A stretch of 64,000 bases of DNA, from positions 1 to 64,000 of the IMG/VR virus record IMGVR_UViG_3300017917_002969. The stretch is one strand, 5' to 3'. Below, one piece after another: positions 2,179 to 54,479 of this stretch. The number at the start of each line of letters is the position of its first letter. The first letter of the stretch is position 1. The notes below the pieces were generated by a model. It ran no database searches, was not told the origin of the DNA, and saw only the letters and a program-made list of their open reading frames with translations. The translations under genes were made by a program, and so were the position numbers. The stretch comes from a virus.

Positions 2179-2370
2179 AATTATAACTCACGAATACATT
2201 ACAGAAAATTGAGGAAAATTAGAAAAAATAGGATTAAAGTTTGATACCAAATTAGCTTTACAAGTAAAATGAAAATTGATATGGTGAGATATACATAAGC
2301 ATTAAAAATAAATTGGTTAAACTAGGTCATGTAATGTGATTTTGTAAAACTAATTATATATTTATACTAT

Positions 2371-2859
2371 ATGGGGTTTCAATATATTTCAGACATTATT
2401 TCTAAATTCACACAAAAACAAAGAATACTAGTTCTTTTTTTGCTTCTTTTTTCAATAACACTTATATTTTTGGGACCAGATTTAATGAATAAATTTGGTG
2501 GTGATGTAGACATTTTAAAGTCAAAACTAAGGGAAAAGGATAACGAAATTGATTCTTTAAACTTAAAAATTATAACCATAAGTCGTTCAATGGTGGATAA
2601 CGAACAAAACTGTACAAACAGACTATTAGAAAGGGAGAGAGAAATAATGGCTCAATTGGATACCTTAGAAAAGACCCTAAATAAACAGAATAACAGAATT
2701 TATCAACCACAATTGTCATACATTTTTGAATCAAATGGTCATGTAAGTGAAGCTCAAAGTGTTCCAATTGATATTAACAACAATGATTTTGCAATTAATG
2801 GTATCAAAAAAATAAAGGGTCAAATAAAAAAACATATGGAAACTAACACACCTAGATAA
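2371..2859 (+). CDS. Membrane-anchored coiled-coil protein (spanin-like topology, unproven)
   Basis: N-terminal hydrophobic helix ILVLFLLLFSITLIFLG followed by heptad-rich region. Confidence 0.55.
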   Translation: MGFQYISDIISKFTQKQRILVLFLLLFSITLIFLGPDLMNKFGGDVDILKSKLREKDNEIDSLNLKIITISRSMVDNEQNCTNRLLEREREIMAQLDTLEKTLNKQNNRIYQPQLSYIFESNGHVSEAQSVPIDINNNDFAINGIKKIKGQIKKHMETNTPR

Positions 2860-2869
2860 AAATAAATCA

Positions 2870-3286
2870 ATGACGAATATACTAATTATCTTTCTAAGTG
2901 TTTTGAACCTTCTACATTATTCTCCAGTATATAGAATTTACCAACCAAATAGACTTCATATATTAGAACAGAATAAAATTGTAAGTGGTGTTGTAAAAAA
3001 AGTTGATTATACAATTGATGGTGACATTCATATTCGTCTAGATGTAATAGATAAATCACTATTAGTCAAAAGAAATATAACAAAAGAAGATGGATGCTTG
3101 GTTTTAGAAATAGTTTGTGGTTGTAAATCTATTTTTCCAGTCTGTAAAGGTTATAAAAACAATATTTTGGTTCCAAACGTAGGGGACACAATAATAACCA
3201 AGGGTTTATTTGTATACGATAAAAGACATAAGATAAATGAAATACACCCAGTTTTAGAACTAACGAAATTTAAAGAAATTAAATAA
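2870..3286 (+). CDS. Exported hypothetical protein, probable OB-fold
   Basis: Signal-like N-terminus; SGVV..DGDIHIRL..EIV..VGD.I..G..VYD..H..EIHPV pattern. Confidence 0.55.
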   Translation: MTNILIIFLSVLNLLHYSPVYRIYQPNRLHILEQNKIVSGVVKKVDYTIDGDIHIRLDVIDKSLLVKRNITKEDGCLVLEIVCGCKSIFPVCKGYKNNILVPNVGDTIITKGLFVYDKRHKINEIHPVLELTKFKEIK

Positions 3287-3287
3287 A

Positions 3288-3305
3288 AAGTTCCACGTGG
3301 AACTT
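3288..3305. promoter_or_regulatory. Perfect 18-bp palindrome, parS-like
   Basis: AAGTTCCACGTGGAACTT, intergenic; the core matches parS TGTTCCACGTGGAACA at 14/16. Confidence 0.65.
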
Positions 3306-3314
3306 AATAACGTT

Positions 3315-3341
3315 AAAAGCATCGAATTAGATGCTTTTTTT
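3315..3341 (+). terminator. Rho-independent terminator
   Basis: AAAAGCATC-gaatta-GATGCTTTT stem followed by a T tract. Confidence 0.75.
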
Positions 3342-3376
3342 GTTTTTTATTGATATTTATAAGAAAATTAAAATAT

Positions 3377-3631
3377 ATGGCAATCATTAATGATATACAC
3401 AGTATAATAGTTTCTGCTAACACACCAAACTTAACAGCACATACATATACAGAAGTATATGGTGGGTCAGCTGGTTGTACAGCTGTAATTAACGGAGTAA
3501 CAGTAAATGTTGGTTCTCAATCTACTATTAGAATAAAAGTTAGAACAATAAGTGGTGGTACTGGTTGTTATTTATTAGGGGAAAATCAAGATGTATTTCA
3601 GGGTTCTACTGGATTAGGTGGAATATATTGA
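3377..3631 (+). CDS. Small Gly/Thr-rich beta-type hypothetical (virion?) protein
   Basis: ATG at 3377 downstream of ATATTTATA motif; ORF-track start 3350 looks over-extended. Confidence 0.65.
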   Translation: MAIINDIHSIIVSANTPNLTAHTYTEVYGGSAGCTAVINGVTVNVGSQSTIRIKVRTISGGTGCYLLGENQDVFQGSTGLGGIY

Positions 3632-3683
3632 CATAAATTTCACTAACATAAACATATTTATAATAAAAATAAAATATAATAGT

Positions 3684-5495
3684 ATGAAAAAAAATATAAA
3701 CATCAGCCCAGTTGGTCTTAAAGGAAATGAAATCAACGAACGTATGAAACAATTGATGGGAATCCAACCTATCAATGAAAATAAGTCTAATATCGTAATT
3801 GAATTGACCAAGATGGGACCAGACGGTAACGCTTATGCTATCGTTAGAGAAAACCACGAATGGTATATCAAAAAAGCCAATAAGACAAAAAATTTGGTTG
3901 CCGAAGACTTTAAATATATCGGTGGTCTTCAAAACAAAAAACAAGAAGCTTATCCATCATATGCAAAAGCTATAAAGCATTTGAATCTTAAGTTCAGAAG
4001 CCTTGCTGAGGCATATAACTACGATGGAGAGATTAACGTATTTTTAAACGATAATCTTCTAAATGAGAACATGCCAATGGCTGGTGGTTTTGCTGAAATG
4101 AAGACCAATGGATTTACTGGAGAAGGAAATTTATATGGAAACAAACCAATGGATGAAATGTATATGGACGAAGCTAAGTCTAAAAACAATCCATGGGCTA
4201 TTTGCACAGCTAGCGTTGGTAGGGAAGACAAACAAAAATACGAAGCTTGTGTAATGGATGTTAAGAAGAAAATGGGTATGGATGAAATGATTACTAAGGA
4301 AGAATATTCTGACCCAACAAAAAGTGAAATGTTAGACACATTGAAACAGGAATTTGGAGGATTTGAAGGATATGATAATTTTTCAGCTGAAGAGGCTATT
4401 TATTGGTACGCTTATAATAATCATGGGGGGCAAAACTCAAACTTATATAGTACTTTAAGTACCTCAACATATAAACCATCACCGTTAATGAAAAATGCTG
4501 AAGATATTGATGATGATATGGCTATCTCAATGTACAACACATTAGTTGATAAATTTGGTGGCGAGGAAATTGGTCATGGTGATTACGAATTGGATGGTGA
4601 TATTGAAATGACTGAATATGAAAAAGCTATTGATGAAATGATAGCTAAAGATAATAAAAAATCATTTCCAGATTTAACTGAATATATTGTACCTGATTGG
4701 GCTATGTCAGCATTAATAAATGGTGATTATACTGGATTATCTGATGAAGACGAACAAAAATTAGAAATGTTTATAGACGAAGTTATCAAACAAAATGGGA
4801 ACGCTAACTTTATGTTAGGTGACATTGATGGTAAAGATAATTTAGGATTTAAACATAGTAATGATATTGATAATTTAGGTTCAAACGTTTATAGAGTATA
4901 TATTAAACCAGATGAAGAAATTGAAATGACTGAATATAAAAAAGCTATTGATGAAATGATAGCTAAAGAAGAACTTAAGGGTGGTCAGAAAAAACTTGAC
5001 GTTAATAAAAACGGAAAATTGGATGCTGAAGATTTCAAAAAGTTAAGAGCTGGTAAGAAAGGTATGGAAGAAGAATTTCAACCTCATGGTTCTTATACAA
5101 TATCTAATCACGGTGGGTACGAAGTTATGTTAAGCCCTGATGGTGAAATGGCAAAAGTTAGGGATGCTTATGGTTCTGATAACCCTGAAACGTCTGATTG
5201 GTTAGAAATTGAATATGTTTATAATGAAGAAACTGGCGAATTAGAACCAGTTATTGACCCAAATGGTTATAATATACCATTAAATATGGTCATGAGAATC
5301 AATGAAATGACCGCAAAAGAAAAGAAATTTGCTGCATTGGCTGAACCAAAAGATAAGATTACATATGCTGATAAGATTGCTGGTGCAAAGAAAGGTGAAG
5401 TAAAAGAATCTAAATTGAGCATACTTGGTGCTTTAAAGAATATGGACGCAATCATCGACAGTCTCACTGAAGGTGAAGTAAAAAAAAAACTCTAG
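3684..5495 (+). CDS. Modular acidic polyprotein, probable head-associated/internal protein (frame 0 product)
   Basis: ATG 3684 after late motif; modules separated by LNE/MDE/INE/LTE linkers; EF-hand-like LDVNKNGKLDAEDF; ends in an A10 run. Confidence 0.7.
   Translation: MKKNINISPVGLKGNEINERMKQLMGIQPINENKSNIVIELTKMGPDGNAYAIVRENHEWYIKKANKTKNLVAEDFKYIGGLQNKKQEAYPSYAKAIKHLNLKFRSLAEAYNYDGEINVFLNDNLLNENMPMAGGFAEMKTNGFTGEGNLYGNKPMDEMYMDEAKSKNNPWAICTASVGREDKQKYEACVMDVKKKMGMDEMITKEEYSDPTKSEMLDTLKQEFGGFEGYDNFSAEEAIYWYAYNNHGGQNSNLYSTLSTSTYKPSPLMKNAEDIDDDMAISMYNTLVDKFGGEEIGHGDYELDGDIEMTEYEKAIDEMIAKDNKKSFPDLTEYIVPDWAMSALINGDYTGLSDEDEQKLEMFIDEVIKQNGNANFMLGDIDGKDNLGFKHSNDIDNLGSNVYRVYIKPDEEIEMTEYKKAIDEMIAKEELKGGQKKLDVNKNGKLDAEDFKKLRAGKKGMEEEFQPHGSYTISNHGGYEVMLSPDGEMAKVRDAYGSDNPETSDWLEIEYVYNEETGELEPVIDPNGYNIPLNMVMRINEMTAKEKKFAALAEPKDKITYADKIAGAKKGEVKESKLSILGALKNMDAIIDSLTEGEVKKKL
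4602..4969 (+). repeat. 50-bp direct repeat (4602-4651 / 4920-4969) flanking an in-frame module
   Basis: attgaaatgactgaatat(g/a)aaaaagctattgatgaaatgatagctaaaga, 1 mismatch; encodes IEMTEY(E/K)KAIDEMIAK. Confidence 0.95.
5478..5495 (+). other. Candidate -1 frameshift/slippage site (A10 run, 5480-5489)
   Basis: GTA AAA AAA AAA CTC TAG; the -1 frame opens at 5477 (after TGA 5474) and runs without a stop into ORF 5528..6904. Confidence 0.6.
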
Positions 5496-5527
5496 AAACT
5501 AACATAAGCGAGGAAACAAAATATAAA

Positions 5528-6904
5528 TTGAAGATGGCTGGCGCTCCAAAGCCAGCCGCTCCAGCCGCTCCAGCTGCACCAATTGATGACGCTCCACCTG
5601 CTGATGCGTCATTTGACAAGCCTAAATCAAGTGAAAAACCTTTTGATGACACCCCTTTTGATGCTGGTGTTGAGGCTGACGAAGAAACAGACCCAAAAAA
5701 ATTTATTGAGCAATTAACTGGTAAATTGGGCCAGTCATTGAGAAAGTATAGCGAAGAACAAGGTCAACCAGATTTTGAACTTGAGAAATTCGCTATTAAT
5801 TCTCTATTGTCAGCTACTCATACTTCTGAAATGGATGCTGAAGACCAAAAAGACATCATAAACAAAGTTAAAACAGCTGGTAAAGGTGATGAAACTCCAG
5901 AGGAAAAGCCAATGGATGATGAAAAACCAATTGAAGAGCCAGCTGATGATGAAAATTTAGATTTTGGCGATGAAAAAGAATTGGAAGAAAATATGTTTAT
6001 TGAAAACCCTAAAAAACTAAGCATATTTGCGCCAGAAGGTAGCGAAGAGGCTGAATATCAAAAATCACATAATAGTATGGAAAAAGAATCAAACAATTAT
6101 ATGTTTTGGCAAAATCTAAAAACAATCCATCATGCTGCTGGTGAGTTATTAAAAATGAATTACGATGAAGTTGATGCTTTATTATCAGACGGACATGGCT
6201 GGGCTTTGGACCACATGGCAACTTCAGCTGATGATGTTGAGGAAGTTTACCACTTTATTGAGGGTAGATTGAACGATTATCACGTAGATTCAGAAGATGA
6301 ACATGGAATGGAAGATGAATGGTCAGCACCAATGGAACTTCATACAGAAATGCCAGTATCAGATGATTTAAAGTACCATATAGAAAATAACATCCCTTTG
6401 AATGAGACTATTTACAGAATTGGTTCCGATAAGTATTTTAATCTTATTAAAGAAGTTAAAGTGTTATACTCAAAAGGTTTGATAAAGCTAAATGAAAATG
6501 ATACTTTTATTGTTAATGAGTTTGATAATCAATATATTATGCTTGAAGGCAAGAAGGTAAAGATGAATTTTATATATGAAGAAGTTGAAACTGAAGAGCT
6601 ACAAGAAGCCGAATATAAGGGTAAAAAAGTTCAACTAGGTAAACCAAAAAGAGGTGGCTCAAAGAAATTCTATGTTTATGTTAGAGACCCTAAGTCTGGT
6701 AACATTAAAAAAGTTTCTTTCGGTGCTAAGTCTGGTGGTGGTAACTTGGCTGTTAAATTAAGAGACCCTAAAGCTAGAAAAGCTTTTTCTGATAGACATA
6801 ACTGCCCTTCAAAGACTGATAGAACATCTCCAGGATACTGGGCATGCCGTCTACCAAGATATGCTAAATCATTAGGTTTAGCTGGTGGTGGTACATGGTG
6901 GTAA
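5528..6904 (+). CDS. Modular protein, probably the C-terminal extension of 3684 via frameshift
   Basis: Pro/Ala linker, DPKKFIEQLTGKLGQSLR core, further modules after xxE linkers, C-terminal basic Cys/His module (KKFYVYVRDP..RHNC..GYWAC). Confidence 0.7.
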   Translation: MKMAGAPKPAAPAAPAAPIDDAPPADASFDKPKSSEKPFDDTPFDAGVEADEETDPKKFIEQLTGKLGQSLRKYSEEQGQPDFELEKFAINSLLSATHTSEMDAEDQKDIINKVKTAGKGDETPEEKPMDDEKPIEEPADDENLDFGDEKELEENMFIENPKKLSIFAPEGSEEAEYQKSHNSMEKESNNYMFWQNLKTIHHAAGELLKMNYDEVDALLSDGHGWALDHMATSADDVEEVYHFIEGRLNDYHVDSEDEHGMEDEWSAPMELHTEMPVSDDLKYHIENNIPLNETIYRIGSDKYFNLIKEVKVLYSKGLIKLNENDTFIVNEFDNQYIMLEGKKVKMNFIYEEVETEELQEAEYKGKKVQLGKPKRGGSKKFYVYVRDPKSGNIKKVSFGAKSGGGNLAVKLRDPKARKAFSDRHNCPSKTDRTSPGYWACRLPRYAKSLGLAGGGTWW

Positions 6905-6924: not shown

Positions 6925-7377
6925 ATGAGTAGAATATCAAAACAAAAACAACATCTGATTGAGCGTAAAAATAAACAGCTTTTGGGTAAACCAGAAATGG
7001 AATGCCCTGAAGCAACTCAAGATTTGGAGTTAAATACCAAAAATAGAGACGCTGCCATAAGTGAACCACATATTCAATATGGTCCATTAAATGTTGATGA
7101 GCCAGCTGATTTTTGGGAAAAAATAGCTGACCATTGGAATACTAGTGTTGAAGCCGCTATGGAATCTAGATGTGGTAATTGTGTTGCTTTTGATATATCA
7201 CCAAGAATGGATGATTGCATGCCAGGTCCAGTATCTGATGAAGATGGAAGATTAGGGTATTGTTGGATGCATCATTTTAAGTGTCATTCAGCTAGAAGCT
7301 GTAGAACATGGGCGAAGGGTGGTCCAATAGAGGAAGATTCAGTATCATATAAATGGCAAGAAAAAAATGAAAAATAA
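6925..7377 (+). CDS. Cys/His-rich probable metal-binding protein
   Basis: CGNC..C..GYCWMHHFKCHSARSCRTW. Confidence 0.7.
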   Translation: MSRISKQKQHLIERKNKQLLGKPEMECPEATQDLELNTKNRDAAISEPHIQYGPLNVDEPADFWEKIADHWNTSVEAAMESRCGNCVAFDISPRMDDCMPGPVSDEDGRLGYCWMHHFKCHSARSCRTWAKGGPIEEDSVSYKWQEKNEK

Positions 7378-9832
7378 TATGAAACCATATAGTGAAGAAA
7401 AAAGTGGTAATATAATTAGAAGAACTTTCTCAAACCTTGTTGAAAGCGAGGAATTGGTATGGCATCGTGATAAAGAAGACAGAATTGTAATTCCTTTAAA
7501 TGAAAATGATTGGTTGGTTCAATTTGACAATGAGCTGCCAAAAAAATTAAATGTTAATGAAGAATTTTTTATACCAAAAAACACTTTTCACAGAGTTATT
7601 AAGGGTTCTGGGGATTTGATGGTGGAGATTATTGAAACGAATTTTGATGATGATTTGGTTGTTTATGAAGCAATTGAAGAAGGAAAGAAGAAAAAGGGTA
7701 AAAAAGACGCTTGTTATCATAAAGTTAGAGCTAGATATGACGTATGGCCATCAGCTTATGCCTGTGTTCCAGAAAATACATCAAAAGCATTAACTAGAGA
7801 TGGTTGGAAACATGTGGATGAATTAAATATTGGTGATGAAATAATGACCTATAATATTGAAAACGATGAATTAGAATTTAAACCAATATTAAATCTCCAC
7901 AGATATAAAGATGTTAAAACAAATGTTGTTAGAAGTGGAAACAATGGCTTTATTTTTGAAGCGACAGATAACCATAAATGGGTTGTTAAATTACCAGAAA
8001 TTAAAGGAAATAGATTGCAAAAATATAATAGAGTAAACGATAAAGCTTTAATTGAGACTAGTGATTTATTAGCAAATAAAAATAATAAAAGTTTGGTTGT
8101 TTCAGCACCATATAATGGTGGTAATAATGTTAAGTTAGATGAAATATTTAAATATGGAACTAACTGGGTTAAATATATTTTAGATATAAGTAGTGAACAA
8201 AGACAAGCGTGGTTATTTAGTGCTATAGTTTATGATGGTAACCAACAAAAAGTAGAAAGATTAACCGAAAATATAAATAATATAGATGACCTAAATTGGC
8301 TATACACTGGTTCACATGGCAAACAATCTTTTGGTTTCAAACAAAAAGATATTGAACATAGAGACGCATTTTTGTTGTCAGCTTTTTTAAACTCTGGCTT
8401 AGTTACTTGGAAAAAAGCTAAAAATAAAGATATTTATTCATGTCATTATACTAGCAATAAACCCCTTAAAAACACATCTAATTTTAAATTAGTTAAAGAA
8501 AATATTTCAGATGTTTGGTGTCCAGAAACAGAAAATGGTACTTGGGTTATGATGCAAGAAACTGAAGGTCGTGGAATTATCACAATAACTGGAAATTCTG
8601 GTGCCCTTGTAAAGTGTCGTAAGGTTGGTGCTGCTAATTGGGGTAATAAGACAAACGAATCAGATGGTGAAAAAATTAATCCAGTTTTTGTAAAAGATTT
8701 TTTAACTGATTTTGGTGTATTAATTTCATTAAATTTTAGTCAAATTACAAAAATGGGTAAAGATTCTGATTCAACAAAAGAATTAGAAGAAATGATGAAA
8801 ACAATTAGAAAACCAATTATAAATGGACAAAATTATTTTGACTTTGTTAAAGATAACATAAATACAATAACTAACAACCCTAAAGTTTTATCAGCTTTAT
8901 TAGGTCAAGTTAGAAATTTATTGATTTATATTGAGCCTAGAGTAGAAAAATTTGTAAAAGACGGACCTGTAAAAATTATTGGTGGTGGTGAAGTTAACTA
9001 TAAAGAAAAGTGGTTAGAAAGAATTAATAAATTAAAAAATGAATATAAAAAAATTATCAATAATTCAGTTAAAGAAGAAACTTCGATTGAAGAAAAGTGG
9101 TCTGAAAAATACAAAAGAAGCATAGATTGCAACAATCCAAAAGGATTTAGTCAAAGAGCGCATTGCCAAGGCAGAAAGAAAACAAATGAATCTGAAGAAG
9201 ACACTAAAGAATTAATTAATTTGGCTCATAGTGCTATTACTAGAAAAAAAGGAAAGGATTATGCACCAGATGTTCATGAATTGCAAGCGTGGATTGATGC
9301 GTATTTAGCTAAAGATAAAAAAATGGATGAGGGAAAAAAGACTGATTTTTCTAAGGAAAAAGAACAAGGTCTTCACGGATGGTTTGCCAGACAAGGTGGT
9401 GAAGGAAAATCACAGGGTTGGGTAGATTGCAACACATGTAGGACAGATAAGGAAACTGGTAGGAAAAAATGCAAACCTTGTGGTAGAAAAGAAGGTGAAA
9501 ACAGAAAATATCCAGCTTGTAGACCAACACCTTCTGCTTGTGGAACACCTAAAAAAGGAAAAAGCTGGGGTAAAAAGGCTGGAAAGGCTAACGAAAACTT
9601 GTCATTACCAGAAAATTTGAGTATTTTTGTTGATAAAACACAAATTAAAAGTATTCTTAGAGAAACATTTAACCAAGAAGATACCATGACAGAACCAATG
9701 ACACAACCAGCGCCAGTTAAACCAAAAGAGGCCCCAACAAAGCCTTTTACTGAACCAGTTAAACCAAGTAGAAAGGATAAACCTTTTCTTCCAATGCCTA
9801 ATGTTCAACCAGACCCAAAAGCTAAAAAATAA
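7367..9832 (+). CDS. Modular polyprotein (cupin-like domain plus basic Cys-rich modules) containing an intein
   Basis: N-terminal WHRD..FIPKNTFHRVIKG cupin pattern; modules DACYHKV..WPSAYA/SGALVKCR, KWSEKYKRSIDC..HC, CNTC..CKPCGR..YPACRP, bounded by IEE/TNE/MDE. Confidence 0.75.
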   Translation: MKNNMKPYSEEKSGNIIRRTFSNLVESEELVWHRDKEDRIVIPLNENDWLVQFDNELPKKLNVNEEFFIPKNTFHRVIKGSGDLMVEIIETNFDDDLVVYEAIEEGKKKKGKKDACYHKVRARYDVWPSAYACVPENTSKALTRDGWKHVDELNIGDEIMTYNIENDELEFKPILNLHRYKDVKTNVVRSGNNGFIFEATDNHKWVVKLPEIKGNRLQKYNRVNDKALIETSDLLANKNNKSLVVSAPYNGGNNVKLDEIFKYGTNWVKYILDISSEQRQAWLFSAIVYDGNQQKVERLTENINNIDDLNWLYTGSHGKQSFGFKQKDIEHRDAFLLSAFLNSGLVTWKKAKNKDIYSCHYTSNKPLKNTSNFKLVKENISDVWCPETENGTWVMMQETEGRGIITITGNSGALVKCRKVGAANWGNKTNESDGEKINPVFVKDFLTDFGVLISLNFSQITKMGKDSDSTKELEEMMKTIRKPIINGQNYFDFVKDNINTITNNPKVLSALLGQVRNLLIYIEPRVEKFVKDGPVKIIGGGEVNYKEKWLERINKLKNEYKKIINNSVKEETSIEEKWSEKYKRSIDCNNPKGFSQRAHCQGRKKTNESEEDTKELINLAHSAITRKKGKDYAPDVHELQAWIDAYLAKDKKMDEGKKTDFSKEKEQGLHGWFARQGGEGKSQGWVDCNTCRTDKETGRKKCKPCGRKEGENRKYPACRPTPSACGTPKKGKSWGKKAGKANENLSLPENLSIFVDKTQIKSILRETFNQEDTMTEPMTQPAPVKPKEAPTKPFTEPVKPSRKDKPFLPMPNVQPDPKAKK
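7763..8596 (+). mobile_element. Intein (278 aa) with degenerate LAGLIDADG-like region
   Basis: Starts CVPENTSKALTRDGWK; block B TDNHKW; block F VWCPET; ends ITGN followed by Ser+1; AWLFSAIVYDG remnant. Confidence 0.85.
9599..9629 (+). promoter_or_regulatory. Bacteroidota-type promoter embedded in CDS
   Basis: TTG-N20-TATTTTTG. Confidence 0.4.
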
Positions 9833-12551: not shown

Positions 12552-15500
12552 ATGCTAACAAAAACAGAGATATTTAAAGAGTATGCGAAGTGTTTGGCTA
12601 GTCCTATCTATGCGATAGAGACTTATCTAGAAACATTCGACAAAACTCAAGAAGGCTTTGTTCCGTTTAAGTTATTCCCAAGACAGAAGGAAATCATACA
12701 TGCTTATGATAAGCATAGGTTTAACCTTATAACCAAACCAAGACAAGCTGGGGTTTCTACAACAACAGCTGCATACATGTCTATTAAGGTTGGTTTTGCC
12801 GATGTAGATAACCCAGAAGCGGTACTAATTATTGCGAACAAACAAGAATTGGCGTTTGAATTCTTAGCCAAGATTAAAGATTTTGTTTCCCAGTTACCTA
12901 GATGGGTTTGGGGAAGCGAATATTACGGAAGCAACAAAAATGAAGAGAAATCAATATTTTTAACAGATTCTAAGAAAGAAATTAAATTGCCTAACGGTAG
13001 TCGTGTAAAGGCAGTTGCCACATCTAAAGATGCGTTGCGTGGTTTTACACCAACATATCTTGTAATGGATGAGGCCGCTTATATTGATAATGGCGCTGAG
13101 GTATTTGGTGCCGCTTTAACTGCGTTAGGTACGGGTGGTAAAGCAACACTTATTTCCACTCCACGTGGTATGGATGCTCTTTATTATAAAACATACGACC
13201 AAGCAAAGAAAAAAGAAAACAACTTCAACATCATTGAGATGAAATGGTATGAAGATTTGCGATACAATAAAGACTTGCGTTGGATTAAGAATGATGTAAT
13301 TGAACCAGAAGTTGAATTTACATTTGGTTCTTATAACCAAAGAATAAGCGAAGGGTGGAAACCCACATCATCTTGGTATGAGGAAATGTGTCGTGGTATG
13401 AACAATGATGCTAAGATGATTGCACAAGAATTGGACGTATCATTTATTGGTTCTGGTGGTAATGTTATTGATGAAGAATACATTGATTTTCAGAACAAAA
13501 ACAATGTTAAAGAACCTTTATATACTGCTGGACCAGAAGGTGAAATATGGATTTGGGCTGAGCCACAAGAAGGTCATCAATACATCATGGGTTGTTTACC
13601 ACCAAATGAAAAAGTGTTAACAAATAATGGGTTAAAAAACATACAAGACGTTGAATTAGATGATATGTTGGTTAGCGAAAATGGTGAATATGTTAACATT
13701 ATTAACAAACAAATTTATCCAGTCATTAATGAAGACATATTTGAAGTTCAAATAGATAATACTTTTAGAACAACAACTTTTACTAAGGAACACCCATTAT
13801 TGGTTAGTAAACCAATACTTAAAAGAAATTATGACAAAAAAAATAATCTTTATAAATTTAACGAGAGATATTGGGATTTTAATTTTAATTTCACTAGAAT
13901 GGAAGAGGTTGAAATTGGAGATTGGGTTAAAGTCCCTAATATTTATAAAAAAGAATTTACTAGTATTTTAGATAATAAATGGTTTATTACGAAAAATATT
14001 AGAAACGATTTTAATATAGCCTCACCATTAAATGATAAAGATTTTTGGTGGTTTATAGGTGTGTGGTTAGGTGATGGATGGTTAGGTAAATTAAATGATA
14101 GTCATACTATATCTATCTGTTTTGATTCTAAAGATGATTATTATTTGAATAAGACAAATGAATTAATTATTAGATTATTTGATAGGTCACCTTCATTTAT
14201 TGATAGAGGTAAAAACACTTTTGAATTGGTGTTCAATTCAAAATTTCTTTACTATTTCATATTAGAAAATTTCGGTCAATATTCTAATGGTAAGAAAATA
14301 AATGAATGGGTTAAATTCATCCCTAAAGATTTTAAAATTGAATTGATTAAAGGTTATTTGGCTAGTGATGGTTCTTGGTTTAAAACTGAAAAAAATGGTA
14401 AGGTAAATTCTAAAATAAGCTTTATTAGTATAAATTTAGAATTATTAGAATCAATTCAAGATATAATATTTTCGTTGGGGGTGATATCGTCATTAAATAA
14501 GTTAAGAAGCGCTAGTAATAGTCATCATATACAAGGCAAACTAGTAAACCAAAAAGAAGCATATAACTTATGTTTGTCCAACCAAGATAGTTTAGATTTG
14601 ATTAATTTATTAAATAATGATGTTTTAGACCCTAAATTAAATAGATTTAAGTTAGATGAATTTAAGACTATTAATAATAGAACTATAAAATCTTGTCATT
14701 TTAGTAAAGATAAAGATTTTATTTATTTTAAAATTAAAAATATTAATAAGAATAAATTTACTGGAAATGTTTATAATTTTGAATGCGATACACACACATT
14801 TATGTGTCATCATATAACAACACATAATTGTGATGTGTCAAGAGGTGATGGAGAGGATTCATCTACAATGGTTATTCTTGATTTTACAACAATGGAACAA
14901 GTTGTTGAATACCAAGGAAAGATACAACCAGATTTGCTAGCTCAAATTGTTGAAGAATACGGAAACCTATACGAAGCATATACGGTTGTCGATGTTACTG
15001 GTGGTATGGGTGTTTCAACGGTTTTAAAGCTTCTTGAGTTCAATTACAAGAGACTTCACTATGATAATCAAAACGGTAAGGTCTTATCTTCAAAACAGAG
15101 AGAATTGTCAAATTATAATAAAGACAATAAAATACCAGGGTTTCACGCAACATCGGTTCGTTTGCCAATGATTTCAAACTTTGAATACAAAATTAGGACT
15201 GATGCTGTTAAGATTCGTTCTGTTAGAATGACATCAGAGATGAAAACATTTATCTATAAGAACGGTAGACCAGACCATATGGAAGGTTATCATGATGATT
15301 TAATTATGGCTATGGCTATGTGTTTATGGGTTGTTGAACATTCATTCAAAAATCTAGAACGTCTTGAGAAGCAGAATAAAGCAATGTTAAGCAGCTGGGT
15401 TATTGGTGGTTCTAATACAATAAAACCAGAATATAAAGCTAATACAACTGATAATCAACCAGTGAATAATAAACCAACAGTTATTAGTAGTTGGATGATT

Positions 15501-15602
15501 GGTGGTGAAAATAAAACCAAACCAAGGGCTAACACATTTGTGAGCAAGAATTTGCAAGACCCAACTGGTCAGTATTCTTGGTTGTTTGGAAGCAAAAAAT
15601 AA
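12552..15602 (+). CDS. terL: Terminase large subunit (T4 gp17-like), intein-containing
   Basis: KPRQAGVST Walker A, LVMDEAA Walker B, LISTPRG, QELD, nuclease G/CDVSRG..DSS and HDDLIMA. Confidence 0.95.
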   Translation: MLTKTEIFKEYAKCLASPIYAIETYLETFDKTQEGFVPFKLFPRQKEIIHAYDKHRFNLITKPRQAGVSTTTAAYMSIKVGFADVDNPEAVLIIANKQELAFEFLAKIKDFVSQLPRWVWGSEYYGSNKNEEKSIFLTDSKKEIKLPNGSRVKAVATSKDALRGFTPTYLVMDEAAYIDNGAEVFGAALTALGTGGKATLISTPRGMDALYYKTYDQAKKKENNFNIIEMKWYEDLRYNKDLRWIKNDVIEPEVEFTFGSYNQRISEGWKPTSSWYEEMCRGMNNDAKMIAQELDVSFIGSGGNVIDEEYIDFQNKNNVKEPLYTAGPEGEIWIWAEPQEGHQYIMGCLPPNEKVLTNNGLKNIQDVELDDMLVSENGEYVNIINKQIYPVINEDIFEVQIDNTFRTTTFTKEHPLLVSKPILKRNYDKKNNLYKFNERYWDFNFNFTRMEEVEIGDWVKVPNIYKKEFTSILDNKWFITKNIRNDFNIASPLNDKDFWWFIGVWLGDGWLGKLNDSHTISICFDSKDDYYLNKTNELIIRLFDRSPSFIDRGKNTFELVFNSKFLYYFILENFGQYSNGKKINEWVKFIPKDFKIELIKGYLASDGSWFKTEKNGKVNSKISFISINLELLESIQDIIFSLGVISSLNKLRSASNSHHIQGKLVNQKEAYNLCLSNQDSLDLINLLNNDVLDPKLNRFKLDEFKTINNRTIKSCHFSKDKDFIYFKIKNINKNKFTGNVYNFECDTHTFMCHHITTHNCDVSRGDGEDSSTMVILDFTTMEQVVEYQGKIQPDLLAQIVEEYGNLYEAYTVVDVTGGMGVSTVLKLLEFNYKRLHYDNQNGKVLSSKQRELSNYNKDNKIPGFHATSVRLPMISNFEYKIRTDAVKIRSVRMTSEMKTFIYKNGRPDHMEGYHDDLIMAMAMCLWVVEHSFKNLERLEKQNKAMLSSWVIGGSNTIKPEYKANTTDNQPVNNKPTVISSWMIGGENKTKPRANTFVSKNLQDPTGQYSWLFGSKK
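13593..14828 (+). mobile_element. Intein with LAGLIDADG endonuclease (412 aa)
   Basis: CLPPNEKVLT start, TKEHP block B, IGVWLGDG and IKGYLASDG motifs, VYNFE..THN followed by Cys+1. Confidence 0.95.
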
Positions 15603-15916: not shown

Positions 15917-18900
15917 ATGGCTGAAAATTTAACAATATTTCAACGACTTGGTAGAATCATCGGGCCAGATGCTATCAAGTCACAACCAAAGCAAACTTCT
16001 CAATCACCAAGATACAATATCAATGGTGATGTTTTGCTTAAAACAGACAACAAAGCTGATTACGAAAGAGCTAAGTTACAAGCCCAGCAAAATAAGTATT
16101 TGGCTCAAATGTGGAAAAAGGTTGAGAGTGGTTTATTCCAACAATCAATCAACTATGAAACAACCCGTATTGGTTCTTATTCAGACTTTGAGGCAATGGA
16201 ATTCTATCCAACCATTGCAGCCGCTTTGGATATTATGATGGAAGAATCGACAACGGTTAACGAAAAAGGTAAAATGCTTAATGTTTATTCAGATAGCAAC
16301 CGTGTTAAGGGTATCCTTGAAGACTTATTTTACAACAGACTTGACATTCATACTTCACTTCCAATGTGGACCAGAAACACACCAATTAGAGAAAATTCAA
16401 TAATTCCGCTATTAGATGGTACCGAATGTACAATTAAAGAATTATCTGATAGGGTTAAAAATGGTGAAGAAATTTGGTCTTACGCTGTCCAAGATAAAAC
16501 AAAAACCATCGTTCCGAGTAAAATTATTTGGTGTGACCTTACTAGGAAAGATAGCGAATTATATAGGGTAACATTAGATGATGGTACTTATATTGATACC
16601 ACGCCAGACCATGAATACATGTTAAGAGATGGTTCTTTTAAAAGAGCAGATAAATTAACTGAAGGTCAATCTTTAATGCCTTTCTATACTAGAAAAAGCG
16701 AAAAAAAGAAAGACAGAATTTCTGGTTATGAAAAAGTTTTTAATCCAAACACTGGAAAATATAAATTCACACACACTATGGTATCTCATGAGTGTGTTAG
16801 AAATTTGGAGAAAGAAAAATTAATTAATGAACAATTTGACACACATCACATTGATTTTAATAAACTAAATAATCACCCAAATAATCTGAAAAGATTGACT
16901 CATTCTGAACATTTCAAACTACATATAGAACATTTTGATAAAATTTTAGGTTCACCAGAAGTTGTTAAAAAAAGAATGGAAGGGATTGATAAATATCTTA
17001 GGTCTGACGAAAGAAGAGAACGTCTTTCGAAAGAAATGAGTGGTTTCTACCCTAAATATTTTAATGAATACAACAATAGCGAATTACACACTAAACATAA
17101 TAAAGTTCGTTCAACTAAAATGTTAAGTAATTGGAGTTCTGATAATTTTATTGTTAAAACTAAAAAAGGAATGACAATTGAAATAACTGATGATTGTTTA
17201 AATTATATTTCTGAATTAATAATATCTAATGAAAAATATGTTGGTGTTAATGAATTGTCTAAGTTACTGAAAAAAGATGAAAAATTTATAAAGTTATTTA
17301 AAATAACTTATACGTTAAAAAAAGATATCCAAAAATCCATAAACCCAACAACAATAAAAAAAGTTATTTTTAGAAAAACGGGTAAAAACTATTTTGATTA
17401 TGCCTTATCAATTAAACCAAGTTTGATTATTGATAAAGCATATATTAAGGCTAAATCTATTTTTATTGGTAAGACCACTTCAAAAATAGTTAATCATAAA
17501 GTTGTTTCGGTTGTTAAATTAGAAGAAACCTCTGATGTTTATTGTTTGGAAGCTGTTGGACCAAATGGAGAACATGATAGACATAATTTTCCTGTCTGTG
17601 GCTTTAACAAAAATAATTCATATTCAAGAAGTTCTGGGGTTTTCTTATCCAACTGTAAGTATGGTGATAACTTTGTTTATTTAAACATTGACGAGAAGTA
17701 TGGTATTCTTAGCGCTAAGCAAATGCCTAACTACGAAATGGAACGTAGAGAAAGTGGATTATTTGATATGATTACTGGTCGTGAAACACCAAACCATCAA
17801 GTTGCTAGTAGCGATAAAACCAAGTTCTATTGGAGAGGACGTGATGTTGAGTTTAATTCGTGGCAAATTGCTCACTTCCGTTTATTGGGTGATGATAGAA
17901 GACTTCCTTACGGTACTTCTGTTTTGGAAAAGGCAAGACGTATTTGGAAGCAACTTATCCTATCTGAAGACTCAATGCTTGTTTATCGTGTTACCCGTGC
18001 ACCAGAAAGACGTGTTTATAAAATCTATGTTGGTAACATAGATGATGCTGATGTACCAGCATATGTAAACGAAATCGCTGATAGATTTAAGCGTATTCCA
18101 ATTGTTGACCCGCAAACTGGTCAAATGGACCTTAGATACAATCAGTTATCTAATGACCAAGATTATTTTATTCCTGTTCGTACTGAAGATGCACCAAATC
18201 CGATTGATACCTTACCAGGTGCTTCAAACTTGGACCAAATTGCAGATATTGAATACTTAAGGAATAACTTATTTACCGCTTTACGTGTACCAAAGCCATT
18301 TTTAGGTTTTGATGAGACTACTGGTGAAGGTAAGAATCTTGCGTTACAAGATATTCGTTTTTCAAGGACGATAAATCGTATCCAGCAATCAATGCTTCAA
18401 GAACTTAACAAGATTGCTATTATTCACTTGTATCTTTTAGGTTTTGAAGAAGACTTTGATAACTTCACAATAACCCTTAATAACCCATCAACACAAGCTG
18501 AAATGCTTAAGGTTGAGCATACACAAGCTAAGGTTACGCTTTACAAGGATGCAGTATCTGATGCTGGTAATGGATTTGCTGCTATGTCAATGACACGTGC
18601 TAAAAGAGAAATTCTTGGTATGTCTGACGATGATATTAAGCAAGACTTGCTTGAACAAAGAATGGAAAAGGCAGCTGCTGCTGAATTGGCTAACTCAGCT
18701 AACGTTATTAAGCATACTGGTATGTTTGATGTTGTTGATAGAATCTATGGTGATATGCAATTGGCTCTACAAGGTGGAGGTGGTGAAGGTGGTGAAAAAG
18801 GTGAAGAAACTAGCAGTGGTGGAGGCGGAGGCGGTGGTCTCGGTGGTTCATTCGGTGGTGGTGGTTTAGGTGGTGAAGACCTAGATTTTGGTGAGGAAGA

Positions 18901-19264
18901 AGCTGGTGGTGAAAGTGAAGCAGCTACAGAAGCTGGTGCTGAAGCAGAGGCTGGTGCTGAACTTGCAGGTGGTGAGGAAGAAGCGGCAGGTGAAGAAGCG
19001 GCTGCTGAAACTGCTCCAACAGAAGTAACAGAATCAATTAAAAAGGTTAATAAATTGCTTAAAGAACAAAAGACTACATTAACCAAAAAAATAAATGATA
19101 GAACCAAAAAATATCAAAACATATTCATAAACAGACTTGTTGAATCAATCAAACCAACAGTTGTTAAAAAGGAAGAGAAGGTTAAGATTTACGACAAGAA
19201 CGTAAAAATAAACAAAGACATTGATACTATGATAAATGATATCAATAAAATGTTGGATGAATAA
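15917..19264 (+). CDS. Portal protein (T4 gp20-like), intein-containing
   Basis: IAAALDI, CKYGDNF, PYGTSVLEKARRIWKQL.L.EDSMLVYRVTRAPERRVYKI.VGN, IDTLPG, ALRVPK; Gly/Glu-rich tail. Confidence 0.95.
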   Translation: MAENLTIFQRLGRIIGPDAIKSQPKQTSQSPRYNINGDVLLKTDNKADYERAKLQAQQNKYLAQMWKKVESGLFQQSINYETTRIGSYSDFEAMEFYPTIAAALDIMMEESTTVNEKGKMLNVYSDSNRVKGILEDLFYNRLDIHTSLPMWTRNTPIRENSIIPLLDGTECTIKELSDRVKNGEEIWSYAVQDKTKTIVPSKIIWCDLTRKDSELYRVTLDDGTYIDTTPDHEYMLRDGSFKRADKLTEGQSLMPFYTRKSEKKKDRISGYEKVFNPNTGKYKFTHTMVSHECVRNLEKEKLINEQFDTHHIDFNKLNNHPNNLKRLTHSEHFKLHIEHFDKILGSPEVVKKRMEGIDKYLRSDERRERLSKEMSGFYPKYFNEYNNSELHTKHNKVRSTKMLSNWSSDNFIVKTKKGMTIEITDDCLNYISELIISNEKYVGVNELSKLLKKDEKFIKLFKITYTLKKDIQKSINPTTIKKVIFRKTGKNYFDYALSIKPSLIIDKAYIKAKSIFIGKTTSKIVNHKVVSVVKLEETSDVYCLEAVGPNGEHDRHNFPVCGFNKNNSYSRSSGVFLSNCKYGDNFVYLNIDEKYGILSAKQMPNYEMERRESGLFDMITGRETPNHQVASSDKTKFYWRGRDVEFNSWQIAHFRLLGDDRRLPYGTSVLEKARRIWKQLILSEDSMLVYRVTRAPERRVYKIYVGNIDDADVPAYVNEIADRFKRIPIVDPQTGQMDLRYNQLSNDQDYFIPVRTEDAPNPIDTLPGASNLDQIADIEYLRNNLFTALRVPKPFLGFDETTGEGKNLALQDIRFSRTINRIQQSMLQELNKIAIIHLYLLGFEEDFDNFTITLNNPSTQAEMLKVEHTQAKVTLYKDAVSDAGNGFAAMSMTRAKREILGMSDDDIKQDLLEQRMEKAAAAELANSANVIKHTGMFDVVDRIYGDMQLALQGGGGEGGEKGEETSSGGGGGGGLGGSFGGGGLGGEDLDFGEEEAGGESEAATEAGAEAEAGAELAGGEEEAAGEEAAAETAPTEVTESIKKVNKLLKEQKTTLTKKINDRTKKYQNIFINRLVESIKPTVVKKEEKVKIYDKNVKINKDIDTMINDINKMLDE
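16382..17653 (+). mobile_element. Atypical intein (424 aa; Pro1, block-F Cys) with HNH endonuclease
   Basis: PIRENSIIPLLDG start, TTPDH block B, HHIDFNKLNNHPNNL HNH, VYCLEA block F, ends FLSN followed by Cys+1. Confidence 0.85.
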
Positions 19265-53645: not shown

Positions 53646-53684
53646 ATCTAGTTTTGTTATAAATATGTCGAACTTATTAAAAAG

Positions 53685-54458: not shown

Positions 54459-54479
54459 TTTTTATTTTTTGTATGTTAA

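What the first reader, a model, noticed from the sequence alone, without database searches (positions are those of the whole stretch)
16382..17653. Portal intein starting with Pro and carrying a block-F Cys (class-3-like, but without the W/T partners)
Seen: PIRENSIIPLLDG aligns register-for-register with the usual CLxxDTxIPLLDG, so residue 1 is Pro and cannot perform the N-S shift. Block F reads VYCLE (Cys at F4). However, block B has Tyr at B12 and the end is FLSN, lacking the class-3 Trp and Thr and the penultimate His. Removal restores WTRNT-CKYGDNF. The portal is essential, so it should splice, possibly by a variant mechanism. Portal hosts and HNH cargo are also uncommon for inteins.
Basis: partly seen in the sequence, partly recalled or inferred. 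Interest (0 to 1): 0.75.

Follow-up and report, generated by a model that had tools for sequence, protein, structure and literature searches.

The report
Proline-first HNH intein in phage portal
The portal gene of this uncultured giant T4-like phage carries a real self-splicing insert (intein) that starts with proline; it belongs to a large lineage I could not find described, which most likely starts splicing with an internal cysteine, as known "class 3" inteins do, but lacks their other signature residues.

Summary
Window 16382-17653 is a 424-aa intein with an HNH endonuclease, inside a T4-type portal gene. Forty-nine close orthologues lack the insert and read ...WTRNT|CKYGDNF. Pro is therefore residue 1, Thr is -1 and Cys is +1.

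The intein is one of at least 161 portal inteins recovered here with the same signature:
- Pro1 and Cys at block F4 in all 161.
- An aromatic other than Trp at B12 in most.
- Leu or Val at G5.
- No penultimate His in any.
- Terminal Asn, then Cys, Ser or Thr at +1.

Pro1 is not odd in itself: the class 3 prototype (mycobacteriophage Bethlehem "DnaB" intein) also begins with Pro. The best reading is class-3-type splicing started by Cys388, on a scaffold otherwise like ordinary class 1 portal HNH inteins. This is inferred, not shown.

Purifying selection, retained mini-intein derivatives, and an intein better conserved than its host gene all indicate an active, mobile element.

Profile comparisons and a tree place the lineage among class 1 portal inteins, away from canonical W-C-T class 3 inteins. 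An AU test does not reject a single origin (p = 0.155).

The same lineage was noted earlier in this scan on other genomes. Verdict: new variant of a known kind.

The parts
15917..16381 (+). Portal N-extein (155 aa), ending ...P-M-W-T-R-N-T; Thr155 is residue -1
   Evidence: ORF list. Intein-free orthologues are continuous across T|C.
16382..17653 (+). The whole intein, 424 aa, from Pro1 to Asn424
   Evidence: Pfam Intein_splicing at 59-61 bits. Exact presence/absence against 49 orthologues. AF2 model mean pLDDT 85.5, with the best fold matches being inteins.
16382..16696 (+). N-terminal splicing domain (residues 1-105). Block A is P-I-R-E-N-S-I-I-P-L-L-D-G. Block B is T-P-D-H-E-Y (Thr74 B7, His77 B10, Tyr79 B12).
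   Evidence: Alignment to class 1 DnaE and NrdJ-1 inteins in the PDB. Group profiles. dN/dS 0.04-0.15.
16382..16384 (+). Pro1 (CCA), a non-nucleophilic first residue
   Evidence: Read from the DNA. Present in all 69 site-a homologues counted.
16532..16534 (+). Cys51 (in W-C-D). A second lineage-specific cysteine of unknown role: Cys in 97% of Pro-first inteins, Ala in 70-85% of Cys-first relatives.
   Evidence: Column profile. Invariant in alignment A2.
16697..17503 (+). Homing-endonuclease region (residues 106-374). The HNH core lies at about 16844-16912 (H-H...N...N...H) and is followed by a helical region.
   Evidence: PHROG HNH endonuclease families, E 7e-9 to 6e-5. Pfam HNH_3 is below cut-off here (17.2 bits) but above it in lineage members. 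HNH residues are invariant in A2. dN/dS 0.15-0.38. GC 24.8% against 37-38% in the exteins.
17504..17653 (+). C-terminal splicing domain (residues 375-424). Block F is D-V-Y-C-L-E-A-V, then a G-P-N-G-E insertion, then D-R-H-N-F. A loop of about 10 residues follows, then block G, G-V-F-L-S-N.
   Evidence: Group profiles. The F4-to-G7 distance is 35-36 residues in the lineage, against 19-25 in class 1 relatives and 21 in W-C-T inteins. dN/dS 0.07-0.30.
17543..17545 (+). Cys388 at block F position 4, the proposed first nucleophile
   Evidence: Read from the DNA. Cys in 161 of 161 Pro-first inteins. Cys-first relatives have D, T, N, A or (13 cases) C.
17651..17656 (+). Asn424 (intein C-terminus) and Cys+1 (first C-extein residue)
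   Evidence: Read from the DNA. Asn is 100% conserved in the lineage. Residue +1 is C, S or T in every Pro-first intein.
17654..19264 (+). Portal C-extein, beginning C-K-Y-G-D-N-F; it holds the Portal_T4 core
   Evidence: Pfam Portal_T4 at residues 640-910. Sequence match to T4 gp20 structures through the intein-free orthologue.

Best explanation
This is an active, mobile intein that interrupts a conserved motif of the T4-type portal protein. It must be removed after translation to give a working portal.

Proposed mechanism (inferred, not shown):
1. Pro1 has no side-chain nucleophile, so the standard first step cannot occur.
2. The thiol of Cys388 (block F4), helped by the block B Thr74/His77 pair, attacks the Thr(-1)-Pro1 peptide bond. 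The N-extein then hangs from Cys388 as a branched thioester.
3. Cys+1 takes over the N-extein by trans-thioesterification.
4. Asn424 cyclises and releases the intein. With no penultimate His, help probably comes from the conserved D-R-H of block F.
5. An S-to-N shift gives ...WTRNT-CKYGDNF....

This is the class 3 pathway, run on a scaffold that otherwise looks like the class 1 HNH inteins of the same gene: Tyr/Phe at B12 and Leu/Val at G5 instead of Trp and Thr. The HNH domain homes the element into intein-free portal alleles.

Shown here: intein identity, exact borders, conservation and covariation of the residues, purifying selection, and mobility. Inferred: which nucleophile acts first.
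For: Borders: 49 insert-free orthologues against 69 with the insert at the same site.

No N-terminal nucleophile: Pro1 is invariant while -1 varies.

Covariation: 161 of 161 Pro-first inteins have Cys at F4. The 85 Cys-first relatives have D24, T16, N3, A1, C13, and 28 unaligned.

The +1 residue is Cys in 105, Ser in 46 and Thr in 10 Pro-first inteins. A pathway that needs a +1 thiol to attack an amide directly therefore cannot serve the whole lineage, yet Cys F4 is kept in all of them.

Precedents:
- The MP-Be class 3 prototype begins with Pro1, splices well and needs its F4 Cys absolutely (PMC2807308).
- The AceL NrdHF intein has a deviant M-C-T triplet and lacks both the F13 and G6 His, yet was shown to use the class 3 route (PMC7891396).
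- A census of class 3 inteins in nr lists 7 'FCV' triplets, the second commonest pattern in this lineage.

Functionality:
- dN/dS is 0.04-0.15 (N splicing domain), 0.07-0.30 (C splicing domain) and 0.15-0.38 (HNH region) against ten IMG/VR relatives.
- 18 of 161 Pro-first inteins are mini-inteins of 155-260 aa that lost the nuclease but keep the Pro1 and Cys F4 signature.
- Only one portal gene lies in the 97.6-kb record.

Mobility:
- In five of the ten loci compared, the exteins (dN 0.35-0.62) are far more diverged than the intein (dN 0.08-0.47).
- Intein GC is 27.8% against 37-38% in the exteins.
Against: No experiment exists for any member. Two of the three residues that define canonical class 3 are absent: Trp B12 and Thr G5. 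Thr G5 was proposed as part of a Cys-His-Thr catalytic triad (PMC7664689). Grafting W-C-T plus C1A onto a class 1 intein did not give splicing, so an F4 Cys alone is not sufficient in general. At this particular site +1 is always Cys, so a class 2-like direct attack is chemically possible here. I could not measure the Cys388-to-scissile-bond distance because model coordinates are not returned. dS is saturated (at least 1), so the dN/dS values are rough. The genome record is only about 29% complete, so a second portal gene cannot be excluded.
Confidence: 0.72

Rival explanations
1. Class 2-like splicing (KlbA type). Cys+1 attacks the Thr(-1)-Pro1 amide directly and forms the standard branched intermediate. 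Cys388 is structural or regulatory, for example a redox partner.
For: At this portal site +1 is Cys in every intein-bearing allele. The class 2 route is established for Ala1/Cys+1 KlbA inteins (cited in PMC2807308). Trp B12 and Thr G5, which help the class 3 reaction, are missing.
Against: 56 of 161 lineage members have Ser or Thr at +1 and still keep Pro1 and Cys F4. Cys F4 is 161/161 only when residue 1 is Pro and varies otherwise, which is not expected of a bystander.
Confidence: 0.12
2. On origin rather than chemistry: the lineage is a divergent branch of the canonical W-C-T class 3 inteins that lost Trp and Thr and exchanged LAGLIDADG for HNH. It would then not be a separate rise of the class 3 strategy from class 1 portal inteins.
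For: An AU test does not reject a tree uniting the W-C-T inteins with the Pro-first lineage (lnL 19.4 lower, p = 0.155). In the free tree, the Cys-first/Cys-F4 portal inteins lie near the point where the very long W-C-T branch attaches. Pro1 plus Cys F4 is the commonest canonical class 3 combination.
Against: Profile-profile scores: Pro-first against class 1 portal relatives 355 (E 8e-62); against Cys1/Cys-F4 relatives 402; against W-C-T 42 (E 2e-6). The last is lower than class 1 relatives against W-C-T (67). In the careful tree with trait columns removed, the Pro-first lineage is a 28-row clade (91/96) nested among class 1 portal inteins, behind branches supported 96/93 and 94/94, while W-C-T is a 100/100 clade on a branch of about 4 changes per site. 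The lineage shares its HNH domain and its insertion sites with class 1 relatives at E down to 1e-57. The best sequence and fold matches in the PDB are class 1 inteins.
Confidence: 0.3
3. A dead or non-splicing insert: the 424 residues stay in the portal as a tolerated domain, or this portal copy is non-functional.
For: No nucleophile at position 1 and no penultimate His. The genome record is incomplete.
Against: There is strong purifying selection on the splicing blocks. Asn424 and a +1 nucleophile are invariant, and mini-inteins keep exactly the splicing residues. The insert splits a motif conserved out to phages at about 38% identity. The pattern recurs in hundreds of independent contigs, including ones of 257-379 kb.
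Confidence: 0.03

Closest known systems
Canonical class 3 (W-C-T) inteins. The prototype is the mycobacteriophage Bethlehem 'DnaB' intein; in GenBank AY500153 it lies in gp11, whose closest homologues are annotated terminase large subunit (residues 141-481).
   Same: Pro at position 1; Cys at block F4; His at B10; terminal Asn; a phage host; no N-terminal nucleophile. It meets the operational definition used for the 2020 census: no N-terminal Cys plus Cys at C2:4.
   Different: Tyr instead of Trp at B12, Leu instead of Thr at G5, and Ser instead of His at G6. Cys+1 instead of Thr/Ser+1. HNH instead of LAGLIDADG (82.5% of known class 3). A portal gene rather than a helicase or terminase P-loop. 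Two insertions in the F-G region. No specific sequence affinity (hhalign score 42).
AceL NrdHF split intein (PDB 6ZGQ), an experimentally proven class 3 intein with a deviant triplet (PMC7891396)
   Same: Lacks Trp at B12 (Met there) and lacks the penultimate His, yet uses the F4 Cys. It shows the W-C-T signature is not obligatory.
   Different: It keeps Thr at G5, begins with Ala, also lacks the F13 His (present here), and is naturally split, without a nuclease.
'FCV' class 3 inteins: 7 of 1702 in NCBI nr, Table S1 of PMC7891396
   Same: F-C-V is the second commonest B12/F4/G5 pattern in the lineage found here, so these are probably members.
   Different: They are only counted in that table. 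I found no description, host gene, mechanism test or Y-C-L entry there. I did not check the accession numbers.
Class 1 HNH inteins of T4-type portal genes (Cys1; F4 Asp/Thr/Asn; penultimate His or Lys)
   Same: These are the closest relatives by sequence (E to 1e-57 for the N domain plus HNH; hhalign 355). Same host gene, partly the same insertion sites, the same block A I-P-L-L-D-G and block B T-P-D-H-x-F, and the same G5 Val/Leu.
   Different: They have Cys1 and usually Asp or Thr at F4. They lack Cys51, the G-P-N-G-E insertion and the long F-G loop, and have Tyr/Asn rather than Arg before the F13 His.
Class 2 inteins (archaeal KlbA)
   Same: No N-terminal nucleophile; Cys at +1.
   Different: KlbA inteins begin with Ala, have no W-C-T triplet and do not depend on a block F nucleophile (PMC2807308). 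Here Cys F4 is invariant, and many lineage members have Ser/Thr at +1.

Membership tests
Intein (HINT splicing domain) | Significant match to the intein splicing-domain profile and fold | tested here: met
   Pfam PF14890 at 61 bits against a cut-off of 35.8. AF2 model pLDDT 85.5, with the top Foldseek hits all inteins (Ssp DnaB, NrdJ-1, Npu DnaB; E about 1e-6).
Intein (HINT splicing domain) | In-frame insertion whose removal restores a continuous, conserved host protein | tested here: met
   49 orthologues without the insert read ...WTRNT|CKYGD....
Intein (HINT splicing domain) | Block B Thr-x-x-His, C-terminal Asn, and a Cys/Ser/Thr at +1 | tested here: met
   T74-P-D-H77, Asn424 and Cys+1 read from the DNA. 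His and Asn are 100% conserved in the lineage.
Intein (HINT splicing domain) | Protein splicing actually occurs | not testable with these tools
   Indirect support only: dN/dS well below 1, retained mini-inteins, an essential host gene.
Class 1 inteins | Cys, Ser or Thr as intein residue 1 | tested here: not met
   Residue 1 is Pro (CCA at 16382-84). The alternative register with Thr as residue 1 is excluded by the orthologue junctions.
Class 3 inteins | No N-terminal nucleophile together with Cys at block F4 (C2:4), the operational definition of PMC7891396 | tested here: met
   Pro1 and Cys388. The F4 column was verified against W-C-T and class 1 inteins. 161/161 covariation.
Class 3 inteins | Trp at block B12 | tested here: not met
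   Tyr79 here. The lineage has Phe 45%, Tyr 43% and a few Trp, against Trp 99% in the W-C-T set.
Class 3 inteins | Thr at block G5 | tested here: not met
   Leu422 here. The lineage has Leu 53% and Val 42%, against Thr 99% in the W-C-T set.
Class 3 inteins | Branched thioester intermediate at the F4 Cys; splicing abolished by its mutation | not testable with these tools
   This needs expression and mutagenesis.
Class 3 inteins | Common descent with the W-C-T inteins | tested here: inconclusive
   The free tree and hhalign place the lineage with class 1 portal inteins. The AU test does not reject union with the W-C-T inteins (p = 0.155).
Class 2 (KlbA-type) inteins | No N-terminal nucleophile, Cys+1 attacks the N-terminal junction directly, no dependence on a block F Cys | tested here: inconclusive
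   Cys+1 is present here. However, 56 of 161 lineage members have Ser/Thr at +1 and all keep Cys F4. The chemistry is untested.
HNH homing endonuclease (intein-borne) | HNH catalytic motif inserted between the splicing halves | tested here: met
   PHROG HNH families, E 7e-9. The H-H/N/N/H residues are invariant in 31 homologues. Pfam HNH_3 is below cut-off in this copy (17.2 bits) but above it in members P0135, P0243 and P0151.
HNH homing endonuclease (intein-borne) | Evidence of homing (presence/absence polymorphism; element less diverged than its host gene) | tested here: met
   49 empty against 69 occupied alleles among close portals. Intein dN is 0.08-0.18 against extein dN of 0.35-0.62 in L010, L012 and L015. 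There is also a GC contrast.

The most novel reading that the evidence does not exclude
The class 3 strategy (no N-terminal nucleophile, first attack by a block F cysteine) arose a second time, inside an ordinary class 1 lineage of HNH inteins of T4-type portal genes. Living intermediates exist: Cys1 plus Cys F4 forms at portal sites a and b, and two apparent Pro-to-Cys revertants nested in the Pro-first clade. The strategy works here without the Trp and Thr thought to be part of the class 3 active site. If so, class 1 and class 3 are interconvertible in nature. The Cys-His-Thr triad would not be required, and the proposal that class 3 inteins descend from a separate protease-like ancestor would not hold for this lineage.
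Probability: 0.5. Interest if true: 0.75.

Novelty: new variant of a known kind. Interest (0 to 1): 0.6.

Why it matters
Class 3 splicing has been defined from one sequence family, the W-C-T inteins, mostly carrying LAGLIDADG nucleases and sitting in helicase or terminase P-loops. One structural study proposed that its Cys-His-Thr triad reflects a separate, protease-like origin. That study could not convert a class 1 intein by grafting W-C-T (PMC7664689).

The lineage described here offers a natural series within one gene: class 1, then Cys1 plus Cys F4, then Pro1 plus Cys F4, and apparently back again. It includes many mini-intein versions of 155-260 aa. This makes three questions directly testable:
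- Which residues are really needed to start splicing from an internal cysteine?
- What replaces Thr G5 and the penultimate His? The candidates seen here are Arg400/His401, the two insertions and Cys51.
- Has the class 3 mechanism evolved more than once?

Small Pro-first mini-inteins with Ser, Thr or Cys at +1 could also be useful new parts for protein engineering.

For phage biology, the lineage shows that portal genes of giant T4-like aquatic phages are heavily colonised by homing inteins, with up to eight intein-like stretches in one portal protein.

Tried and rejected
- A three-sequence MAFFT alignment with cultured-phage portals misplaced their N-exteins inside the intein. I used only the local W-x-R-N-x-C-K-Y-G-D match and then relied on close metagenomic orthologues.
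- I first took Bethlehem gp52 (phosphoesterase) for the MP-Be 'DnaB' intein host. Its flanks did not match the published junctions. The published flanks (VSQDQ / TKNTF) are in gp11.
- The 'quick' tree was poor. A constrained tree uniting the W-C-T and Pro-first inteins was 54.7 lnL better than it. I therefore discarded the quick tree and ran the careful search (lnL -21600.0 against -21671.5). Against that tree the constrained one is 19.4 worse, p = 0.155. Independent origin is favoured but not demonstrated.
DNA of relatives came from the search for related loci in IMG/VR instead.
- dN/dS: dS is saturated in every pair (at least about 1; several are undefined). Only the direction (well below 1) and the intein-versus-extein dN contrast are used.
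- Sequence search of the PDB with the intein-free orthologue aligned only residues 246-491 to T4 gp20. Insertion site a could therefore not be mapped onto the T4 portal structure.
- Model coordinates are not returned, so the Cys388-to-junction and Cys51-to-Cys388 distances could not be measured.
- Literature searches for this lineage (class 3 + HNH + metagenome; intein + gp20/portal; intein + portal + HNH + T4-like) found no description of it. The library lacks most subscription journals, so this is not proof of absence.
- Removal at the RNA level was considered and rejected. The insert is an uninterrupted in-frame ORF with all the intein blocks.
Full report
**What is there**

Window 15917-19264 (+) is one ORF of 1115 aa. 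Pfam finds a T4-type portal core (Portal_T4, E 4.6e-66) and an intein splicing domain (61 bits, cut-off 35.8). PHROGs adds portal and HNH-endonuclease families.

The window lies in a 97.6-kb IMG/VR virus record rated about 29% complete. It holds one portal gene. Related contigs reach 257-380 kb. The nearest cultured phages (Microcystis phage Mel-JY01, Flavobacterium phage immuto) share only about 38-40% portal identity and have no intein. This is an uncultured giant T4-like phage.

**Borders**

The 120 best portal homologues split into two groups:
- 49 have nothing at this site and read ...P-M-W-T-R-N-T|C-K-Y-G-D-N-F... (38 T|C, 9 T|V, 1 A|C, 1 M|V).
- 69 have an insert starting P-[IV]-[RK]-x-x-x-x-[IV]-P-L-L-D-G immediately after a variable -1 residue (T, L, V, I, M, A).

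The intein is therefore exactly 16382-17653 (424 aa, Pro1 to Asn424), with Thr at -1 and Cys at +1. The motif readings hold in the DNA and in alignments with both class 1 and canonical class 3 inteins: T74-P-D-H77-E-Y79 (B7, B10, B12), D-V-Y-C388 (F4), His401 (F13), and F-L-S-N424 (G4-G7).

**It is a family, not an oddity**

A full phmmer scan of 1.84 billion cluster representatives gave 3882 hits, 418 of them below 1e-30. From the 264 proteins in hand I delimited 246 inteins by their N- and C-terminal splicing regions.
- All 161 that begin with Pro have Cys at F4.
- The 85 that begin with Cys have Asp (24), Thr (16), Asn (3), Ala (1), Cys (13), or were not aligned at that column (28).

Among the Pro-first inteins:
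- B12 is Phe 45% or Tyr 43%.
- G5 is Leu 53% or Val 42%.
- G6 is never His (Ser 76, Lys 36, Ala 15, and others). It is His in 51 of 85 Cys-first relatives.
- G7 is always Asn.
- Residue +1 is Cys (105), Ser (46) or Thr (10).

The lineage has further marks of its own:
- A second cysteine, Cys51: 97% Cys against Ala in relatives.
- A G-P-N-G-E insertion after the F4 strand.
- A loop of about 10 residues between blocks F and G, so F4 to G7 is 35-36 residues against 19-25 in class 1 relatives and 21 in W-C-T inteins.
- Arg before the F13 His (D-R-H-N-F, Arg 96%).

All six 'other-site' hosts I checked are T4-type portals too. Most members sit at two portal sites: site a (this one...R-N-x|C-K-Y-G) and site b (...Y-N-x-x|S/T...).

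**Is it alive?**

Compared with ten IMG/VR relatives:

| Region | dN/dS |
|---|---|
| N-terminal splicing domain | 0.04-0.15 |
| C-terminal splicing domain | 0.07-0.30 |
| HNH region | 0.15-0.38 |

dS is saturated, so only the direction is meaningful. In five of the ten loci the portal exteins are much more diverged (dN 0.35-0.62) than the intein (0.08-0.47). Together with the empty/occupied polymorphism and a GC of 27.8% against 37-38% in the exteins, this is the pattern of a homing element. Eighteen of the 161 are mini-inteins (155-260 aa) that lost the nuclease but keep Pro1 and Cys F4, which argues that splicing is what selection maintains. An AF2 model built on 31 homologues is confident (mean pLDDT 85.5; splicing domain above 90). 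Its best PDB matches are inteins.

**Mechanism**

Pro cannot make the N-S acyl shift. The literature removes the apparent paradox.
- The prototype class 3 intein (MP-Be 'DnaB') begins with Pro1, splices efficiently, and depends absolutely on its block F4 Cys, which forms a first branched intermediate (PMC2807308).
- In the 74 W-C-T inteins I collected from that prototype, Pro is the commonest first residue.
- The AceL NrdHF intein shows that the class 3 route works with a deviant triplet (M-C-T) and without the F13 and G6 His (PMC7891396).

The strict Pro1-Cys F4 covariation here, kept even when +1 is Ser or Thr, makes a class 3-type route the best reading. In that route Cys388 attacks the Thr(-1)-Pro1 bond, Cys+1 takes over the N-extein, Asn424 cyclises, and an S-to-N shift follows. 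I put this at about 0.72. A class 2-like direct attack by Cys+1 remains possible for this site (about 0.12). A dead insert is very unlikely (about 0.03).

What replaces Thr G5 and the penultimate His is unknown. Arg400/His401, the two insertions and Cys51 are the candidates the conservation pattern points to.

**Relation to known class 3**

By the operational definition (no N-terminal Cys plus Cys at C2:4) this is a class 3 intein. It fails two of the three W-C-T positions. It carries HNH rather than LAGLIDADG (82.5% of the 1701 known). It sits in a portal rather than a P-loop ATPase. In the 2020 census only 7 'FCV' and no 'YCL' triplets appear.

By sequence the lineage belongs with class 1 HNH inteins of the same gene:
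- N-domain plus HNH matches reach E 1e-57.
- Profile-profile scores are in the table below.
- PDB sequence and fold searches return class 1 inteins first.

| Profile pair | hhalign score |
|---|---|
| Pro-first vs class 1 relatives | 355 |
| Pro-first vs Cys1/Cys-F4 relatives | 402 |
| Pro-first vs W-C-T | 42 |
| Class 1 relatives vs W-C-T | 67 |

I built a careful ML tree of 91 splicing domains with the five trait columns removed.
- The W-C-T inteins form a 100/100 clade on a branch of about 4 changes per site.
- The Pro-first lineage is a 28-row clade (91/96) nested among class 1 portal inteins.
- Two Cys1/Cys-F4 inteins at site a (P0150, P0157) lie inside the Pro-first clade (99/93), which looks like reversion.
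- A separate Cys1/Cys-F4 group at site b lies outside it.

However, an AU test does not reject uniting the W-C-T and Pro-first inteins (lnL 19.4 lower, p = 0.155). The tree is unrooted, and the W-C-T branch is very long. A second, independent origin of the class 3 strategy is therefore favoured (about 0.5) but not shown.

**Significance**

Beyer et al. proposed a Cys-His-Thr triad and a separate, protease-like ancestry for class 3 inteins, and could not convert a class 1 intein by grafting W-C-T (PMC7664689). A natural lineage with class 1, intermediate and Pro-first forms in one gene, lacking Thr G5, is a direct test bed for those ideas.

**Earlier scan notes**

The same lineage was reported before on other genomes, with the same reading (e1-5973021, e1-5752775, e1-5408526). 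I re-derived the borders, the covariation, the literature precedent and the phylogeny independently. My AU test tempers the 'evolved on its own' claim. I found no paper describing the lineage, but the library searched is incomplete.

Noticed in passing
window 16532-16534 (intein residue 51): A second lineage-specific cysteine (W-C-D). It is Cys in 97% of Pro-first inteins and Ala in 70-85% of Cys-first relatives. The two Cys1 forms nested in the Pro-first clade keep it. Its role is unknown; possibilities include a redox partner of Cys388 or a second-shell residue.
   Followed up: partly
window 13593-14828 (in the terminase large subunit ORF 12552-15602): A second intein of 412 aa. It is ordinary class 1 (Cys1 ... 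T-H-N|C) with a LAGLIDADG domain. Its GC is 24.1% against 35-37% in the exteins.
   Followed up: partly
window 7763-8596 (in ORF 7331-9829): A third intein of 278 aa. It begins with Cys but carries the full canonical triplet: Trp at B12 (N-H-K-W), Cys at F4 (D-V-W-C) and Thr at G5, and it ends T-G-N|S. This is a W-C-T-type intein with an N-terminal nucleophile, in the same phage as the Pro-first non-W-C-T one. The intein in Bethlehem gp52 (L008) has the same V-W-C ... T-G-N|S pattern.
   Followed up: partly
window 51968-54461 (- strand): A fractured gene with a split intein. ORF 53688-54461 (IMPDH/GMP-reductase-like N-half) ends in an intein N-fragment (G-G-G|C-F-L-E-N...). ORF 52617-53684 is a free-standing endonuclease-like gene (E-L-D-G-E-F-W-H motif). 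ORF 51968-52645 starts with a 45-aa intein C-fragment (...I-V-H-N|C, nt 52499-52633) fused to the C-half. From my own recollection, not checked here, this looks like the 'fractured genes' arrangement of Dassa et al. 2009.
   Followed up: partly
P0150 (residue 146) and P0157 (residue 148), portal site a: Full-length homologues of this intein (E 1e-99 to 1e-105) that begin with Cys yet keep Cys at F4. They are nested inside the Pro-first clade (99/93). They are either Pro-to-Cys revertants or evidence that the scaffold can use either first nucleophile.
   Followed up: partly
portal site b (window about 18140, ...L-R-Y-N-Q-L|S-N-D-Q...), empty in this genome: In other phages this site holds Pro-first/Cys-F4 inteins, Cys1/Cys-F4 inteins with a penultimate His (D-T-G-C-I-T-V ... 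L-H-N|S), or plain class 1 inteins. A third site (T-L-P-G-A|S-N-L-D) holds class 1 HNH inteins. Some portal proteins have up to 8 intein-like stretches (P0121, 2818 aa).
   Followed up: partly
L003 (LR756508.1, uncultured 484-kb phage), ORF 1782-5942: A portal gene with three class 1 inteins at other sites; the third carries an HNH domain related to this one. The upstream gene also carries an intein.
   Followed up: no
intein-free orthologues (for example P0065, P0075, P0078): Ten of the 49 alleles empty at this site have Val instead of Cys at the +1 position (T|V or M|V). Such alleles could not support splicing if invaded and may be intein-immune variants.
   Followed up: no
L009 7260-9971 (AY500153 gp11): The classical 'MP-Be DnaB' intein lies in a gene annotated 'hypothetical protein gp11'. 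Its homologues are annotated terminase large subunit, so the historical name 'DnaB' is a misnomer.
   Followed up: partly
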